64,000 nucleotides of DNA, taken from the NCBI RefSeq assembly GCF_000026545.1, contig NC_011601.1. The stretch is one strand, 5' to 3'. The notes under the pieces are model-generated. The model searched no databases, was not told the DNA's origin, and saw only the letters and a list, made by a program, of their open reading frames with translations. Shown here one piece after another: positions 23,706 to 32,146 of this stretch (the stretch's first letter is position 1; every line of letters starts with the position of its first letter). The stretch is from Escherichia coli O127:H6 str. E2348/69. Lineage in GTDB: Bacteria > Pseudomonadota > Gammaproteobacteria > Enterobacterales > Enterobacteriaceae. The translations under genes were made by a program, and so were the position numbers.

Positions 23706-24394
23706 ATTTTATTTAATAGCTCCCGTTCGTGTTTTCTCTTGTTAATGGCATCTTCAGTAAATACAGGGTTACTGATAGTGACACCAATTTCAAAACAACC
23801 TTCAGACGTATTAACGTTTGGTAATAACGTTTCCATTATCGCGTCCTCAACAATGAATTTTGTGATGTGGTGCCTGGTGCCTCCAGGTGACGTTAACCAG
23901 TTAACAATTAACGCCGGATACAGAGAATCCACCCATAACACTGTTTTTGGTTTTAACTGTTCCGCGTGCGCTCAGCCGCATTCACCGCATCACAAAATTC
24001 ACTTTAAAAACGGCGGCAGAGCAGTCACGGAGTAAAACTGATACCGCCAAACGTCACCAGAAAATTGATAACAGAGGGCGTTGCAGCGGGGTTGTCGCTT
24101 AAGCGTATGGTCAACCTGACAACCCGGTGTCCTCAACGGGGAAGGAATAACCCCGCCATACTTACCGCCGCGCCATTTCGCGGAGTGCCACAACCGGAAG
24201 CGCACGGTCGAACTAAATTTAACGACACCGTACAGAGAGACCAATTTTGCCGTGCGCTTTCGCGTTATGCCCTGACTTTTCAGGGACATATCCTTTCAGT
24301 AAACTGTCAGTGCCGGATGTTCACCCGTGTCCGGCGCACGCACTCCACCTGACCCGTGGAGAACTCCTTAATTACCAACCCTCAGGAGGGTGAA

Positions 24395-28797: not shown

Positions 28798-29331
28798 GTG
28801 GAGATAATAATGGGAATAACTAAAGAACGATTGTTGGAAATAGCAAACCTTAGTGATTGGGCATTAAGTGATGAGAGAATTGTTTCTCCTCATGCTTATG
28901 AGTCAGTTACAAGTATAGAAATAACAACAATGGCTAGAATGCTGCTTGGTTATTTCAAAATAGAAAATAAAAAACAGATGGATAGTAATGTTGATATATG
29001 TGAGATTTTAGACGATTGGGGGGCTTGGGTTGTGGCTGGTAATAGTTCTATTGATTGGCAGGAAATAGCTGATAAATATAAAAATGTTGTTCCTCATGGT
29101 AAAAAATCACGTCGTCAGTGCAGCAATGATGAAGGGCGAATTATTGACATTAGTATCCTTAGGTTAGAAAGATATAAGCAACAAGAATATGAGTTAATTG
29201 TTGCTCATTTCGTGATTGGTTTATCTCTTCGTGCTATTGCAAAGCAACAAGGATGTTCAGATGGAACAATTCGTAAAAGATTGCAAAAAGCCTTAGGTTT
29301 TTTGACTGGATATATAGCAATTACCAGTTAA
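28798..29331 (+). CDS. regulatory protein with sigma-70 region-4-like HTH C-terminus
   Basis: 177 aa; C-terminus ...LSLRAIAKQQGCSDGTIRKRLQKALGFL resembles sigma region 4.2 / antiterminator-type HTH. Confidence 0.5.
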   Translation: MEIIMGITKERLLEIANLSDWALSDERIVSPHAYESVTSIEITTMARMLLGYFKIENKKQMDSNVDICEILDDWGAWVVAGNSSIDWQEIADKYKNVVPHGKKSRRQCSNDEGRIIDISILRLERYKQQEYELIVAHFVIGLSLRAIAKQQGCSDGTIRKRLQKALGFLTGYIAITS

Positions 29332-29969
29332 GAGTCAGCGGTTTTTTTACCAGTGTAATGGTATAAGGATACTCCCATGTGTCTTACATGATATGGAAGC
29401 GCTGTTGCTGGATGCTTTGTGATACTCTTAAAGCGGAGGGGAGAGCCTTCCGCTTCAATTTCTGCGTCCGAAACGGTCGTAGAGAAAAATTCTTTCCATT
29501 CATTGAATTTTACTGCTGATTTGTCAGACTTTATATAAATTAGAATTCCTCCATGATCGTCACGTGACGTACCCGTGCCGTAACGTTCGGTTAGCTGAAT
29601 CCAGCCATTATGAATAGATTTGGGGCCTCTCCATAATTTTGCTTCACCGATCCATTCGAATTTTCCGAATTGATGTTTAACTAATAAATCAACGTGACCG
29701 CCATGTTGAGTATCATGTTCAACATCATAAAACCTACCTTTCAGGAAATTTTTGATCGACGCTGTTAGCTCGTCCTCTCCCCACTTAGCATCTTGATAGA
29801 AGTGTTTGTCATTTTCTAAATTCTGAATAGCGTCGTCTAAATCTTCATAGAGTTGCTTTACAAAAATATTTTTGTCTGCAGCTAATTTTCTTTGAACCAT
29901 TCCCCTAAATTCAGGATCCATTCTAATTAATGATTGAAGGTCTGCAGTACAGATGTTTACATCACTCAT
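29328..29969 (-). CDS. cassette gene C: putative Mrr-like PD-(D/E)xK nuclease (213 aa)
   Basis: Start placed at ATG 29969 (MSDVNICT..., GGAG upstream) rather than track start 30032; motif HGGHVDLLVKHQFGKFEWIGEAKLW resembles the Mrr-cat GxGxhD ... (Q/E)xK signature; 8-nt overlap with gene B. Confidence 0.55.
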   Translation of the reverse strand: MSDVNICTADLQSLIRMDPEFRGMVQRKLAADKNIFVKQLYEDLDDAIQNLENDKHFYQDAKWGEDELTASIKNFLKGRFYDVEHDTQHGGHVDLLVKHQFGKFEWIGEAKLWRGPKSIHNGWIQLTERYGTGTSRDDHGGILIYIKSDKSAVKFNEWKEFFSTTVSDAEIEAEGSPLRFKSITKHPATALPYHVRHMGVSLYHYTGKKTADS

Positions 29970-30390
29970 GCAGACTCTCCAAAAGACTCGAAGGAGTAAA
30001 GTATGGATAAAGATACTGGCTAAAATTATCAACCAATTCGCCAGTTTCTGGATGGTAAAAACTTCCTGTGTCTAAAGCATAGGAAATAAGATCATCTTCA
30101 ACTGGTATTGGTTCTTCCGTTAAATTATCAATGTATTGAAAATGCATATCCAATAGATGTGCTTTATAGCTAGATAAATAATCAGTTGCTTTTATTAGCA
30201 GGATATAGCCATCTTTCGTATCAGTTAGATAGGTTAAACCATTGATAAGGGTTTTGTATGTAAAGTGATTGATATTTTTAGCATCTTTACTAACCAGAAA
30301 AAGAAAAAGATCACGACACACACTGCGAACAGGATCATTAAAATCCTGCTCTATTTGCGTGATAATGTCGTGATATATACTCTTTTTCAT
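29962..30390 (-). CDS. cassette gene B: hypothetical protein (142 aa), no recognisable domain
   Basis: ATG overlaps stop of gene A (ATGA); AT-rich codon usage distinct from neighbours. Confidence 0.55.
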   Translation of the reverse strand: MKKSIYHDIITQIEQDFNDPVRSVCRDLFLFLVSKDAKNINHFTYKTLINGLTYLTDTKDGYILLIKATDYLSSYKAHLLDMHFQYIDNLTEEPIPVEDDLISYALDTGSFYHPETGELVDNFSQYLYPYFTPSSLLESLHE

Positions 30391-31484
30391 TTATGGCCTG
30401 ATGATCTCGCTCTTCTTTTCTCTTCACAGGACTTAACAGAATCCAATATTTTTTCAACAATAAATATAATCGAATCAATGTTGTTACAGTTCTTCGCAAT
30501 TGCTTCATGCAACCTAATTCTAGGATTATCAAGCATTGTCCTTTTTCCTGGTAATATTAACTCTACTGATAAAATATGTGAAGAACTTTGTGGTAAATCC
30601 CAAATTTTTCCCAACTTAAACTTTGTCAATATTGGGCTTGCGGACTCTCCACTATGATGGTAAACATCTTGACGCAAACACTTTTGACTTGGTTTGAGTT
30701 TTAAAGAACTTGTATTGCCATCTGAGGTGATAAAAGATACATGAGAAATTCTGCCATCTACTTTTTCGTAAAGATCTTGTATTGAACCAAATAATTCAAG
30801 AGGATTGTTTAAAATAACGCCAGCTTCTTTTTTTATAAATTTAGCCACAAGGTATTGTTGAGGCTGTGATTCACTTCTTGGAAGGATAGATAAATCAATC
30901 GTAAGAATTAATATTTTTTCTGCAGGCATTAGCATGATGGTATTAAAGCATTGCGTGACTTGGCGTGTTTTGCATTTTATTTCTCCACCATTAGCACGTA
31001 ATTCCATACCCGCATCGCTAAGATGTGTTGGGTCAAGCTCTATCACTTCAGTGTAATACGCTTTGGATAAAAAAACAGCAGTGTCAATTTGTTTATCACG
31101 AATGATATCTTGACGTAGTTCAGCAAAATGCAGCTCAGTATCAGCAACTAACAGCTCCTCTCTGGATAAAGGAATTGGGTATTTTTCTGAGAAGGGGCTA
31201 TTGTCCTTTTTCTGATTTGTGAAAATTGTTTGTAATTTTGCTACGTCTTCATCGGTGATTCTATAAATAGAAAGTAATCGATTCCCGCTAAAAATTAAAC
31301 CTTTCCAGAAATCGTCGATTCTGTCTTTTAGGTCGGGATTATGCTGAACTACACTATTTACACGTTCAATAAAAAGGGGTAATCCTTGGGCCGTTACACC
31401 CAGTGATGAACCAAGAAGCTTACGGGTGTTGCGCCAGCCAAAGCGTGAATTGATGTTTTTTACTGTTTGCTCAAGCATTAACAC
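30387..31484 (-). CDS. cassette gene A: hypothetical protein (365 aa), no recognisable domain
   Basis: First gene of a three-gene minus-strand operon; no Walker or other nucleotide-binding motif seen. Confidence 0.6.
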   Translation of the reverse strand: MLMLEQTVKNINSRFGWRNTRKLLGSSLGVTAQGLPLFIERVNSVVQHNPDLKDRIDDFWKGLIFSGNRLLSIYRITDEDVAKLQTIFTNQKKDNSPFSEKYPIPLSREELLVADTELHFAELRQDIIRDKQIDTAVFLSKAYYTEVIELDPTHLSDAGMELRANGGEIKCKTRQVTQCFNTIMLMPAEKILILTIDLSILPRSESQPQQYLVAKFIKKEAGVILNNPLELFGSIQDLYEKVDGRISHVSFITSDGNTSSLKLKPSQKCLRQDVYHHSGESASPILTKFKLGKIWDLPQSSSHILSVELILPGKRTMLDNPRIRLHEAIAKNCNNIDSIIFIVEKILDSVKSCEEKRRARSSGHK

Positions 31485-31767
31485 TTCCTTAATTTTCCCT
31501 TAACAATTTAGGGTGCTAAACTTTTTTGCGCAGTTTACATAAAAAAATAGTGCGTACGCAAAAACTATCTAACATGATGAGCTTTAACCGGGAAATTTGT
31601 ATATGTTGTGAGCATAAAGTTGGCTGAGAAATCTAAAACGGGTAGAATGACTGCGGGTGCTTGAGGCTATCTGTCTCAGGCATGAACACCAAAAGGCAGA
31701 TAGAGAAAAGCCCCAGTTAACATTACGCGTCCGGCAAGACGCTTAACATTAATCTGAGGCCATATCT

Positions 31768-31980
31768 ATGCTCTACACACGTAGGTTAGCCTCTTACGTG
31801 CCGAAAGGCAAGGAGAAGCAGGCTATGAAGCAGCAAAAGGCGATGTTAATCGCCCTGATCGTCATCTGTTTAACCGTCATAATGACGGCACTGGTAACGA
31901 GGAAAGACCTCTGCGAGGTACGAATCCGAACCGGCCAGACGGAGGTCGCTGTCTTCACAGCTTACGAACCTGAGGAGTAA
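31768..31980 (+). CDS. mok: Mok-like overlapping reading frame of a hok-family type I toxin locus
   Basis: 70-aa frame whose C-terminal 51 codons are hok; arrangement as in hok/sok loci. Confidence 0.45.
   Translation: MLYTRRLASYVPKGKEKQAMKQQKAMLIALIVICLTVIMTALVTRKDLCEVRIRTGQTEVAVFTAYEPEE
31825..31980 (+). CDS. hok: Hok-family type I toxin (HokD/RelF-like, 51 aa)
   Basis: MKQQKAMLIALIVICLTVIMTALVTRKDLCEVRIRTGQTEVAVFTAYEPEE; AGGAG at 31811-31815. Confidence 0.85.
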   Translation: MKQQKAMLIALIVICLTVIMTALVTRKDLCEVRIRTGQTEVAVFTAYEPEE

Positions 31981-32048
31981 GAGACCAGGCGGGGGAGAAT
32001 CCCTCGCCACCTCTGATGTGTCAGGCATCCTCAACGCACCCGCACTTA

Positions 32049-32076
32049 ACCCGCTTCGGCGGGTTTTGTTTTTTCC
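32049..32076 (+). terminator. rho-independent terminator after hok
   Basis: cccgc-ttcg-gcggg followed by ttttgtttttt. Confidence 0.65.
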
Positions 32077-32146
32077 TGGCATTCTGGTTTACAATTCGCA
32101 CGCCAGCCTGAACAACTGGCACCTGCTGCGCCAGCAGAGACAACCG

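What the first reader, a model, noticed from the sequence alone, without database searches (positions are those of the whole stretch)
31650..32080. hok/mok type I toxin locus divergent from the candidate cassette
A 51-aa Hok-family toxin (MKQQKAMLIALIVICLTVIMTALVTRKDLCEVRIRTGQTEVAVFTAYEPEE) with an overlapping upstream mok-like frame and its own terminator (32049-32076). A sok-like antisense RNA would be expected on the minus strand around the mok start (about 31730-31800), but I cannot place its promoter with confidence. An inverted repeat ctatctgtc ... gcagatag at about 31668-31700 may be part of the hok mRNA fold-back elements.
Basis: partly seen in the sequence, partly recalled or inferred. 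Interest (0 to 1): 0.5.

Follow-up and report, generated by a model that had tools for sequence, protein, structure and literature searches.

The report
Intact prophage hok/mok/sok toxin-antitoxin locus
This is a complete copy of the well-known hok/sok "host-killing" toxin and antisense-RNA antitoxin module, sitting in a lambda-like prophage of E. coli E2348/69; about three quarters of complete E. coli genomes carry one, so it is ordinary.

Summary
The window is E. coli E2348/69 (100% identity), and RefSeq annotates the ORF as hokD.

- **Toxin:** the 51-aa ORF (31825-31980) matches Pfam HOK_GEF end to end (E 2e-23).
- **Leader:** 31655-31830 matches Rfam RF01794 (117 bits, E 3e-27).
- **Canonical elements, all present:**
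  - hok promoter (-35 31620-25, -10 31643-48)
  - 5' tac (31655-66), which pairs with 3' fbi (32029-41)
  - metastable 5' hairpin and tac/ucb stem
  - mok (ATG 31768, in frame with hok, 70 aa)
  - terminator (32048-65)
  - RNA runs 31776 to 31706 on the minus strand
  - -10 TAACCT at 31788-83 and -35 TTGCCT at 31811-06
  - placed by homology to sokW of phage 933W/Sp5 (93% identity), whose identical -10 was mutated experimentally
- **How common:** K-12 hokD is a truncated version lacking this leader. Full-length copies occur in 4008 of 5426 complete E. coli genomes.

Expression and toxicity of this copy are inferred, not shown. Already known; low interest. One side observation: a hypervariable 12-nt patch at the Sok 5' end/target loop.

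The parts
31620..31648 (+). hok promoter: -35 TTGGCT (31620-25), 17-nt spacer, -10 TAGAAT (31643-48)
   Evidence: Consensus scan gives 9 of 12 matches. The -10 aligns with the R1 hok -10 TATGAT. TAGAAT is present in 65 of 72 related loci, and the -35 is TTGGCN or TTTGCG in most.
31655..32073 (+). Full-length hok mRNA (about 419 nt), from +1 near G31655 to the terminator T run
   Evidence: The Rfam RF01794 alignment starts at 31655 with model position 1. MFE is -169.6 kcal/mol, z = -7.9. The ends are inferred, not mapped.
31655..31666 (+). tac (translational activator element), GGGUGCUUGAGG. It pairs alternately with fbi, with ucb, or within the metastable hairpin.
   Evidence: Pairs with 32029-41 in both MFE and centroid. 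Across 72 loci the cells are 99.2% paired with fbi, 100% with ucb and 100% in the metastable hairpin. Column entropy is 0.009.
31657..31683 (+). Metastable 5' hairpin of the nascent transcript (31657-67 with 31673-83)
   Evidence: Predicted for transcripts ending at 31700, 31770 and 31830. All 11 pairs are standard in 72 of 72 loci, and variation is wobble-compatible only.
31667..31703 (+). Inner helix of the 5' tac hairpin: CUAUCUGUCU (31667-76) with AGGCAGAUAG (31694-703).
   Evidence: Present in the MFE and in the Rfam consensus structure. 98.3% paired; one pair changes AU to GC in 3 loci.
31706..31716 (+). ucb, the anti-Shine-Dalgarno box (AAAAGCCCCAG). It pairs with the mok SD region in the closed form and with tac in the open form.
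   Evidence: The MFE pairs 31710-16 with 31754-60. The tac/ucb stem is predicted for the 66-nt 5' fragment and is 100% paired in 72 loci. Element names follow PMC9841398.
31706..31776 (-). Predicted Sok antisense RNA (71 nt): a 15-nt single-stranded 5' tail, a long hairpin, then UUUU
   Evidence: - Coordinates are transferred from the sokW misc_RNA of phage 933W.
- Fold is -28.6 kcal/mol with a free 5' tail.
- The hairpin region is about 10 kcal/mol more stable on the minus strand than on the plus strand in 72 of 72 loci.
- The sokW northern probe maps to 31747-31776.
- No transcript has been shown for this copy.
31783..31811 (-). sok promoter: -35 TTGCCT (31811-06), 17-nt spacer, -10 TAACCT (31788-83)
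   Evidence: - It occupies the same position as the R1 sok promoter elements TTGCGC and TATCCT, which I identified from memory on the R1-type sequence.
- It is identical to 933W/Sp5, where mutating this hexamer to GAGCCG removed the antitoxin effect.
- The -35 is invariant apart from a TTGACC variant.
- It matches only 7 of 12 consensus positions, so the scan did not list it.
31756..31759 (+). mok Shine-Dalgarno sequence GAGG
   Evidence: It lies 8 nt upstream of ATG 31768 and is invariant in 72 loci. It is sequestered by ucb in the full-length fold.
31768..31980 (+). mok reading frame (70 aa), in frame with hok, covering all of it
   Evidence: Listed as an ORF. 933W mokW is annotated the same way. 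It matches PHROG 251, "MokW-like host killing", E 1e-32. The ATG is conserved in 72 of 72 loci, but the frame varies.
31771..31782 (+). Hypervariable patch (CTCTACACACGT here). It forms the apical loop of the SDmok/dcb target hairpin and straddles the predicted Sok +1.
   Evidence: Mean column entropy is 1.02 bits, against at most 0.49 for any other 12-nt window. There are 13 alleles in 72 loci and 17 alleles in 120 loci.
31789..31793 (+). dcb (GCCUC), which pairs with the mok SD region GAGGC (31756-60) in the open form
   Evidence: Present in the Rfam consensus structure. All 5 pairs are invariant and paired in 72 of 72 loci. Being invariant, they neither support nor contradict the pairing.
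31825..31980 (+). hok toxin ORF (51 aa) with SD AGGAG at 31811-15
   Evidence: - Pfam HOK_GEF covers model positions 1-42 of 42, E 1.9e-23.
- RefSeq names it hokD, WP_012578894.1.
- The CDS is 99% identical in DNA to K-12 hokD, with one amino-acid difference, V20M.
- CDS column entropy is 0.027.
31963..31966 (+). TACG motif at the Tyr47 codon, a potential TadA A-to-I editing site (Tyr to Cys)
   Evidence: The sequence is read directly and is invariant in the 72 loci. Editing of K-12 hokD at the homologous Tyr is reported at about 6% (PMC5630033; PMC12214031). Not tested here.
31988..32008 (+). 3' UTR hairpin: GGCGGGGGA, 3-nt loop, UCCCUCGCC
   Evidence: Present in the MFE. 98.9% paired, with one pair varying among GU, AU and GC.
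32029..32041 (+). fbi (fold-back inhibitory element), CCUCAACGCACCC, complementary to the 5' end with one bulged C
32048..32075 (+). Intrinsic terminator: AACCCGC-TTCG-GCGGGTT followed by TTGTTTTTT
   Evidence: Terminator scan. Conserved in most related loci.

Best explanation
This is a complete hok/mok/sok type I toxin-antitoxin module of the hokD/hokW lineage. It is carried as an accessory "moron" gene in the nin region of a lambdoid prophage of E. coli E2348/69. The mechanism below is inferred by homology to R1 hok/sok and to hokW-sokW.

**How it is kept silent**
- A weak constitutive promoter makes a stable hok mRNA of about 419 nt.
- While the mRNA is being made, its 5' end is held in a metastable hairpin.
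- When the mRNA is complete, the 5' tac pairs with the 3' fbi. The mok Shine-Dalgarno sequence is then buried by the ucb box, so the RNA is neither translated nor bound by Sok.

**How it is activated**
- Slow 3' trimming removes fbi.
- tac then pairs with ucb, which exposes the mok SD and the target hairpin.
- If the short-lived 71-nt Sok RNA is present, its free 5' tail binds across the mok start. This blocks mok translation, and with it the coupled hok translation, and the duplex is degraded.
- If Sok is lost, mok and hok are translated and the 51-aa membrane peptide collapses the inner membrane.

**Likely role here** (less certain, about 0.4): as shown for HokW of Sp5, the module stays silent in the lysogen, fires when Sok falls on prophage induction, and helps lysis and phage release.
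For: **Identity**
- The window is 100% identical to E2348/69, and the ORF is annotated hokD.
- Pfam HOK_GEF E 1.9e-23; PHROG 251; Rfam RF01794 at 117 bits.
- The leader and CDS can be aligned with R1-type hok/sok (73% mean column identity).
- 93% identical to 933W hokW/mokW/sokW over 410 nt.

**RNA anatomy**
- tac/fbi pairing appears in both MFE and centroid, z = -7.9.
- The three mutually exclusive 5' pairings are 99-100% paired in 72 distinct loci, and variation is limited to changes that all conformers tolerate.
- The metastable and tac-stem folds are predicted for 5' fragments.

**Sok**
- The promoter hexamers are identical to sokW, whose -10 mutation unleashed toxicity.
- Sok folds with a free 5' tail and a terminator hairpin.
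- That hairpin is 10 kcal/mol more stable on the Sok strand in 72 of 72 loci.

**mok**
- The ATG is conserved in 72 of 72 loci while the frame and product vary. That fits a role for its translation rather than for its peptide.

**Function of relatives**
- HokW is toxic and is neutralised by sokW. Sok is lost and HokW made on RecA-dependent induction, and phage release halves without the locus.
- HokD is reported toxic.
- The R1 model is summarised in PMC9841398.
Against: - No transcript, processing event or toxicity has been shown for this copy. Everything functional is inferred by homology.
- The sok promoter matches only 7 of 12 consensus positions and was not picked up by the scan.
- Chromosomal hok loci tested earlier (hokA, hokB, hokC) did not give post-segregational killing and were proposed to be inactive (Pedersen and Gerdes 1999, as cited).
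- The toxin carries V20M relative to K-12 HokD; its effect is unknown.
- hokW lies at a different place in its phage, so its induction behaviour may not transfer.
- The related loci are too similar (91% mean column identity) to give much true covariation. Only 12 of 143 pairs show double changes.
Confidence: 0.88

Rival explanations
1. Inert relic. The locus is structurally intact but physiologically silent, like the chromosomal hok loci of K-12, and does nothing for the prophage or the host.
For: - Earlier work found chromosomal hokA, hokB and hokC loci unable to mediate post-segregational killing or rifampicin activation (cited).
- K-12 hokD is a truncated copy lacking the whole leader.
- The sok promoter is weak by consensus.
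Against: - Every regulatory element is present.
- The regulatory elements and CDS are conserved far more tightly than the hypervariable patch inside the locus (tac entropy 0.009, CDS 0.027, patch 1.02).
- The ORF is intact, and the leader is 100% identical in other prophages (L030, L042, L055).
- The 93%-identical hokW-sokW is functional.
- Full-length copies persist in 4008 of 5426 genomes.
Confidence: 0.1
2. The molecular mechanism is the same, but the role is prophage addiction. Cells that lose or excise the prophage lose unstable Sok and are killed by the stable hok mRNA.
For: - This is the paradigm role of R1 hok/sok on plasmids.
- The 933W record annotates the locus as "prophage maintenance".
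- The stable closed mRNA architecture (tac/fbi) is retained.
Against: - Chromosomal loci tested did not give post-segregational killing.
- The only experiment on a prophage copy points to a role at induction, not at loss.
- Many lambdoid prophages in E. coli are defective and rarely excise (general knowledge).
Confidence: 0.25
3. The molecular mechanism is the same, but the role is defence against superinfecting phage. Host transcription shut-off depletes Sok, and Hok kills the cell before the phage matures.
For: - R1 hok/sok on a high-copy plasmid reduced T4 plating by 42% (cited).
- The locus sits next to a low-GC accessory cassette in a prophage accessory region.
Against: - A census found hok not enriched near defence systems (section title; discussion).
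- Neither Hok nor the neighbouring cassette hits any PADLOC model above threshold.
- The R1 effect was small and was measured at high copy number.
Confidence: 0.15

Closest known systems
hokW-mokW-sokW of Stx2 phage 933W / Sakai prophage Sp5 (AF125520; Takada et al. 2021, PMC8621323)
   Same: - 93% nucleotide identity over 410 nt, from the -10 to fbi.
- The same tac, ucb, mok SD, sok -35 and -10, hok SD and fbi sequences.
- mok is in frame with hok (70 aa).
- Carried by a lambdoid phage.
   Different: - The Hok C-terminus differs (FTAYEPEE here, FVDYESEK in HokW).
- The 12-nt patch after the mok ATG differs (CTCTACACACGT against CTGAACACATGT).
- The sequence after fbi, including the terminator, is unrelated.
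- hokW lies near the right end of the 933W genome record (58.4-58.8 kb of 61.7 kb), not in the nin region.
hokD (relF) of the Qin prophage, E. coli K-12
   Same: The CDS is 99% identical in DNA and the 3' UTR, fbi and terminator 96%. The protein differs at one residue (V20M). The downstream neighbourhood is the same, with a DUF968/ydfU gene and Q.
   Different: In K-12, homology starts about 13 nt before the hok ATG. The promoter, tac, ucb, mok and sok are all missing and are replaced by relBE. The window holds the intact form of which K-12 hokD is a rearranged remnant.
hok/mok/sok of plasmid R1 (the paradigm; an R1-type copy was fetched from p1658/97, NC_004998)
   Same: - The same order of elements: promoter, tac, ucb, mok SD and ATG, the sok promoter inside the leader, hok, fbi, terminator.
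- The 5' end (GGCGCUUGAGGCU in R1-type, GGGUGCUUGAGGCU here), the AGCCUCUUAC box, the AAGGAGAAG hok SD and the GCUUACGAA editing motif are conserved.
   Different: - Mean column identity of the two-sequence alignment is only 73%; HokW, which differs from this Hok at 5 residues, is 44% identical to R1 Hok.
- In R1, mok is in a different frame from hok.
- This leader has a longer Sok/ucb hairpin.
- The location is a prophage, not a plasmid.
hokC/mokC (gef) of E. coli
   Same: A chromosomal Hok/Gef toxin. From my memory of the UniProt MokC entry, it has an in-frame upstream mok (orf69). The 933W record notes similarity to "Gef+leader protein".
   Different: It is a different paralogue at a core-genome site, interrupted by an IS element in K-12 (as cited). 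I did not compare it directly.

Membership tests
hok/sok (Hok/Gef) type I toxin-antitoxin family | A small (about 50 aa) hydrophobic Hok/Gef-family toxin ORF | tested here: met
   Pfam PF01848 HOK_GEF covers model positions 1-42 of 42, E 1.9e-23. NCBIfam Hok subfamily NF007279 scores 48 bits, below its curated cut-off of 73. RefSeq names it HokD.
hok/sok (Hok/Gef) type I toxin-antitoxin family | An upstream overlapping mok reading frame with its own SD, whose translation is needed for hok translation | tested here: met
   SD GAGG at 31756-59 and ATG at 31768 open a 70-codon frame through hok. The ATG is conserved in 72 of 72 loci. Translational coupling itself cannot be tested here.
hok/sok (Hok/Gef) type I toxin-antitoxin family | A cis-encoded antisense Sok RNA, with its promoter inside the mok-hok leader, that covers the mok translation initiation region | tested here: inconclusive
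   The sequence features are all present and identical to the experimentally mutated sokW promoter. The hairpin stability is specific to the Sok strand. The transcript itself has not been observed for this copy.
hok/sok (Hok/Gef) type I toxin-antitoxin family | Long-range 5'-3' pairing (tac/fbi) that closes the full-length mRNA | tested here: met
   12 bp between 31655-66 and 32029-41, in both MFE and centroid. 99.2% of cells are paired in 72 loci, against 34-40% when the 3' partners of the whole tested structure are slid.
hok/sok (Hok/Gef) type I toxin-antitoxin family | Alternative 5' conformers: a metastable hairpin in the nascent RNA, and a tac/ucb stem plus SDmok/dcb hairpin in the processed RNA | tested here: met
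   Predicted folds of 5' fragments. The Rfam RF01794 consensus structure is matched over the full model. Cells are 100% paired for the tac/ucb, dcb and metastable helices. The upper stem of the target hairpin is only 83% paired.
hok/sok (Hok/Gef) type I toxin-antitoxin family | 3' exonucleolytic processing to a translatable truncated mRNA, and RNase III cleavage of the Sok-hok duplex | not testable with these tools
   This needs northern blots or a rifampicin chase. For hokW, smaller RNAs were seen and RNase III dependence was partial.
hok/sok (Hok/Gef) type I toxin-antitoxin family | The toxin kills or arrests the cell when expressed without Sok | not testable with these tools
   HokW and HokD are reported toxic. 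This protein differs from HokD by V20M.
HokD (NCBI / K-12 naming) | Near-identity to K-12 HokD (RelF) protein and a position upstream of ydfU/DUF968 and Q in a lambdoid prophage | tested here: met
   50 of 51 residues are identical. The neighbours are DUF968, RusA and Q, compared with ydfU and ydfT in K-12. The upstream side differs: a low-GC cassette here, relBE in K-12.

The most novel reading that the evidence does not exclude
The 12-nt patch at 31771-31782 is by far the most variable part of otherwise near-identical prophage hok loci, with 17 alleles in 120 loci. It is the loop of the Sok-target hairpin and includes the first nucleotides of Sok. It could be a specificity determinant under diversifying selection, so that the Sok of each prophage neutralises only its own hok in polylysogens. 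That would make these modules mutually orthogonal competition or addiction devices.
Probability: 0.2. Interest if true: 0.4.

Novelty: already known. Interest (0 to 1): 0.1.

Why it matters
It matters little beyond annotation.

- **Annotation gap.** The RefSeq record lists only the hokD CDS. The mok frame, the Sok RNA gene and the hok mRNA boundaries are not annotated and can now be placed to the nucleotide.
- **Reference form.** E2348/69 carries the intact form of the locus that K-12 holds only as the rearranged hokD remnant. It is therefore a better reference for studying "hokD" regulation.
- **Untested phenotype.** If the HokW result transfers, the locus would modestly affect lysis timing and phage yield of this EPEC prophage.

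Tried and rejected
1. **Allele exclusion between co-resident copies.**
   - Among IMG/VR prophages from the same genome, 11 pairs carry different patch alleles and 2 carry the same allele.
   - Random expectation for "same" is 0.12, so there is no signal on this small sample.
2. **Long-range pairing of the mok start with the 3' UTR.**
   - The MFE pairs 31768-86 with 32009-28.
   - This is the least conserved helix (87% paired, many unpaired cells), so I do not claim it.
3. **Consensus promoter and terminator scan for Sok.**
   - Nothing was listed on the minus strand.
   - The promoter matches 7 of 12 positions, below the scan's threshold of 9.
   - The Sok hairpin is long and interrupted, which probably falls outside the scan's stem-loop rule.
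   - The negative is therefore uninformative.
4. **NCBIfam.** The Hok models hit below their curated cut-offs (48 bits against 73). Pfam and PHROG are unambiguous.
5. **Neighbouring cassette.**
   - PADLOC and NCBIfam on the three-gene cassette and on the downstream 92-aa ORF gave no hits, apart from one marginal PDC-S54 match (E 0.0014).
   - PHROGs placed them only in families of unknown function.
6. **Literature on this locus.** A search for E2348/69 with hokD found no transcript data.
7. **YUNR U-turn motif.**
   - By eye I could not find a YUNR motif in the target loop of this allele, whereas the 933W allele has CUGA.
   - This rests on my memory of Franch et al. 1999 and was not tested.

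Full report
**Where the window comes from**

The 621 bases around the finding are 100% identical to the E. coli E2348/69 (EPEC O127:H6) chromosome, where the ORF is annotated "type I toxin-antitoxin system toxin HokD". The surrounding genes belong to a lambdoid prophage.
- Upstream lie dicB, a repressor region and replication-region genes.
- Next come a small Q-family gene and a three-gene minus-strand cassette.
- Then comes hokD, followed by a small ORF, DUF968, RusA, Q, two tRNAs and the lysis genes.

The locus therefore sits in the nin/Q region, as hokD does in the Qin prophage of K-12.

**Checking the observation**

The quoted 51-aa peptide is encoded at 31825-31980.
- **mok:** an upstream ATG at 31768, with SD GAGG at 31756-59, opens a 70-aa frame that ends at the same stop. 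mok is therefore in frame with hok.
- **Terminator:** the stem is 32048-65, followed by a T run.
- **Inverted repeat:** it is a 10-bp helix, 31667-76 with 31694-703.
- **Protein family:** the peptide matches Pfam HOK_GEF end to end (E 1.9e-23) and PHROG 251, "MokW-like host killing".
- **RNA family:** Rfam RF01794 matches 31655-31830 over the full model at 117 bits, against a gathering score of 59 (E 3e-27).

The Rfam family is called "sok", but it matches the plus strand and its consensus ends at the hok AUG. It therefore models the hok leader, the complement of Sok, and not the antisense RNA itself. None of this is chance.

**Anatomy of the hok mRNA**

A promoter-like site (TTGGCT, 17 nt, TAGAAT; 31620-48) lies at the position of the R1 hok -10. 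It puts +1 near G31655, where the Rfam alignment begins.

The full-length RNA (31655-32073) folds at -169.6 kcal/mol, z = -7.9. In both the MFE and the centroid, the 5' GGGUGCUUGAGG pairs with CCUCAACGCACCC at 32029-41. This is the tac/fbi fold-back. In that fold the mok SD is paired with GCCCCAG at 31710-16, the ucb box.

Shorter 5' fragments fold in the two other ways expected from the R1 model (model summarised in PMC9841398):
- a metastable hairpin, 31657-67 with 31673-83;
- a tac/ucb stem, 31655-62 with 31708-14.

I aligned 72 distinct full-length relatives: 933W, two E. coli genomes and IMG/VR prophages. The pairings hold up as follows.

| Pairing | Cells paired in 72 loci |
|---|---|
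| tac/fbi | 99.2% |
| tac/ucb | 100% |
| SDmok/dcb base | 100% |
| Metastable hairpin | 100% |

When the 3' partners are slid, pairing across each tested structure falls to between 28% and 53%.

The sequences are too alike (91% mean column identity) for much true covariation. The variation that does exist is limited to changes every conformer tolerates. For example, C/U at 31675 faces a G both in the metastable hairpin and in the inner helix.

**Placing Sok**

Phage 933W (AF125520) annotates mokW, hokW and a 71-nt sokW antisense RNA. Its locus is 93% identical to this one.
- **Transferred coordinates:** the alignment puts Sok at 31776 to 31706 on the minus strand. The -10 TAACCT is at 31788-83 and the -35 TTGCCT at 31811-06, with a 17-nt spacer.
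- **Match to R1:** on the R1-type sequence, the hexamers I recall as the R1 sok promoter (TTGCGC and TATCCT) fall at the same positions.
- **Experimental support from Sp5:** Takada et al. 2021 showed that HokW is toxic and that sokW neutralises it. A promoter-less sokW mutant lost that protection. Their mutagenic primer changes exactly this hexamer, which is identical here. Their sokW probe ends at the position equivalent to 31776.
- **Predicted fold:** Sok folds into a 15-nt free 5' tail, a long hairpin and UUUU, at -28.6 kcal/mol.
- **Strand asymmetry:** the hairpin region is about 10 kcal/mol more stable on the minus strand than on the plus strand in all 72 loci. G.U wobbles on the Sok strand become A.C mismatches on the hok strand. 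That asymmetry is what one expects if the minus strand is itself a structured RNA.

The transcript has not been observed for this copy.

**How it compares with known loci**

In K-12 hokD, homology starts only about 13 nt before the hok ATG. The promoter, tac, ucb, mok and sok are all missing and relBE sits there instead. The window therefore holds the intact form of which K-12 hokD is the rearranged remnant.

The intact form is common. 4008 of 5426 complete E. coli genomes have a place covering at least 80% of the transcript, with a median of 2 places per genome. It also occurs in Stx phages, P1-like phages and plasmids. A recent census reports that hok is enriched in prophages.

Only the junction with the upstream low-GC cassette is rare. 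It is present in 12 genomes.

**Mechanism and role**

The molecular mechanism I commit to is the canonical hok/sok one, set out in the best explanation. The shown and inferred parts are as follows.
- **Shown here:** the presence, arrangement and conservation of every element.
- **Shown for a 93%-identical relative:** toxicity, Sok antitoxin activity, and promoter function.
- **Inferred:** expression, 3' processing and toxicity of this copy.

For the biological role, the only direct evidence on a prophage copy is that HokW is made when Sok disappears on RecA-dependent induction, and that phage release halves without the locus. I rank the roles in this order:
1. help with lysis and release at induction (about 0.4);
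2. prophage addiction;
3. abortive-infection defence;
4. an inert relic.

**Side observations**

1. **Hypervariable patch.**
   - The 12 nt after the mok ATG (31771-82) are the most variable part of the transcript. Mean entropy is 1.02 bits, against at most 0.49 for any other 12-nt window.
   - There are 13 alleles in 72 loci and 17 in 120.
   - The patch is the loop of the Sok-target hairpin and straddles the predicted Sok +1.
   - Co-resident copies did not avoid sharing an allele in a small sample.
2. **mok frame polymorphism.** The mok ATG is invariant but its frame is not. This fits a role for mok translation rather than for its peptide.
   - 57 loci are in frame with hok.
   - 14 end after 19 codons at an ATGA overlap with the hok start.
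   - 1 runs 68 codons in another frame.
3. **Editing motif.** The Tyr47 codon lies in a TACG motif (31963-66). K-12 hokD is edited by TadA at the homologous site at a low level.

**Verdict**

It belongs to a thoroughly studied family and to a lineage (hokD/hokW) that is already named, annotated and partly characterised. It is already known and of low interest.

Noticed in passing
window 31771-31782: A hypervariable 12-nt patch lies just after the mok ATG. It is the loop of the Sok-target hairpin and straddles the predicted Sok start. Entropy is 1.02 bits, more than twice that of any other 12-nt window of the transcript, with 17 alleles among 120 prophage loci. In 13 same-genome pairs, co-resident copies did not avoid sharing an allele.
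   Followed up: partly
window 31768-31827; alignment A4: The mok start codon is conserved in 72 of 72 relatives but the frame is polymorphic. 57 are in frame with hok (70 aa), 14 stop after 19 codons at an ATGA overlap with the hok start, and 1 runs 68 codons in a shifted frame.
   Followed up: yes
window 31963-31966: The Tyr47 codon TAC followed by G forms the TadA editing motif TACG. It is invariant in the family. Published work reports low-level Tyr-to-Cys editing at the homologous site of K-12 hokD.
   Followed up: partly
window 29328-31484 (minus strand): A low-GC (33-39%) three-gene cassette (365, 142 and about 197 aa) lies divergent from hok. Its genes fall in PHROG families of unknown function (12777, 11490, 9664), with no NCBIfam hit and only a marginal PADLOC match. 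The cassette-hok junction is present in only 12 of 5426 complete E. coli genomes.
   Followed up: partly
L002 (K-12 MG1655 1645119-1645274 and flanks): K-12 hokD keeps the CDS, 3' UTR, fbi and terminator but lacks the promoter, tac, ucb, mok and sok. Homology to the intact locus starts about 13 nt before the ATG, directly after relE.
   Followed up: yes
window 24011-24062 (-), 36620-36796 (+), 34730-34802 and 34896-34969 (+): Other Rfam hits above the gathering score in the window: DicF antisense RNA, sRNA STnc100, and two tRNA genes (annotated tRNA-Ile and tRNA-Arg) downstream of Q.
   Followed up: no
L043:987-1035: In one IMG/VR prophage the hok promoter is replaced by a second copy of the mok/sok-promoter segment (TCACAAATGTAGGTTAGCCTCTTACGTGCCGAAAGGCAAGG), joined directly to the tac sequence. 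This suggests recombination between tandem or paralogous hok loci.
   Followed up: no
window 28798-29331 and 33850-34540 region (L001 6331-6852 and 11366-12055): The prophage carries two Q-type antiterminator genes, a 177-aa "antiterminator Q family" gene upstream of the cassette and a 229-aa Q downstream of RusA. An ISEc13 transposase lies beyond the tRNAs.
   Followed up: no
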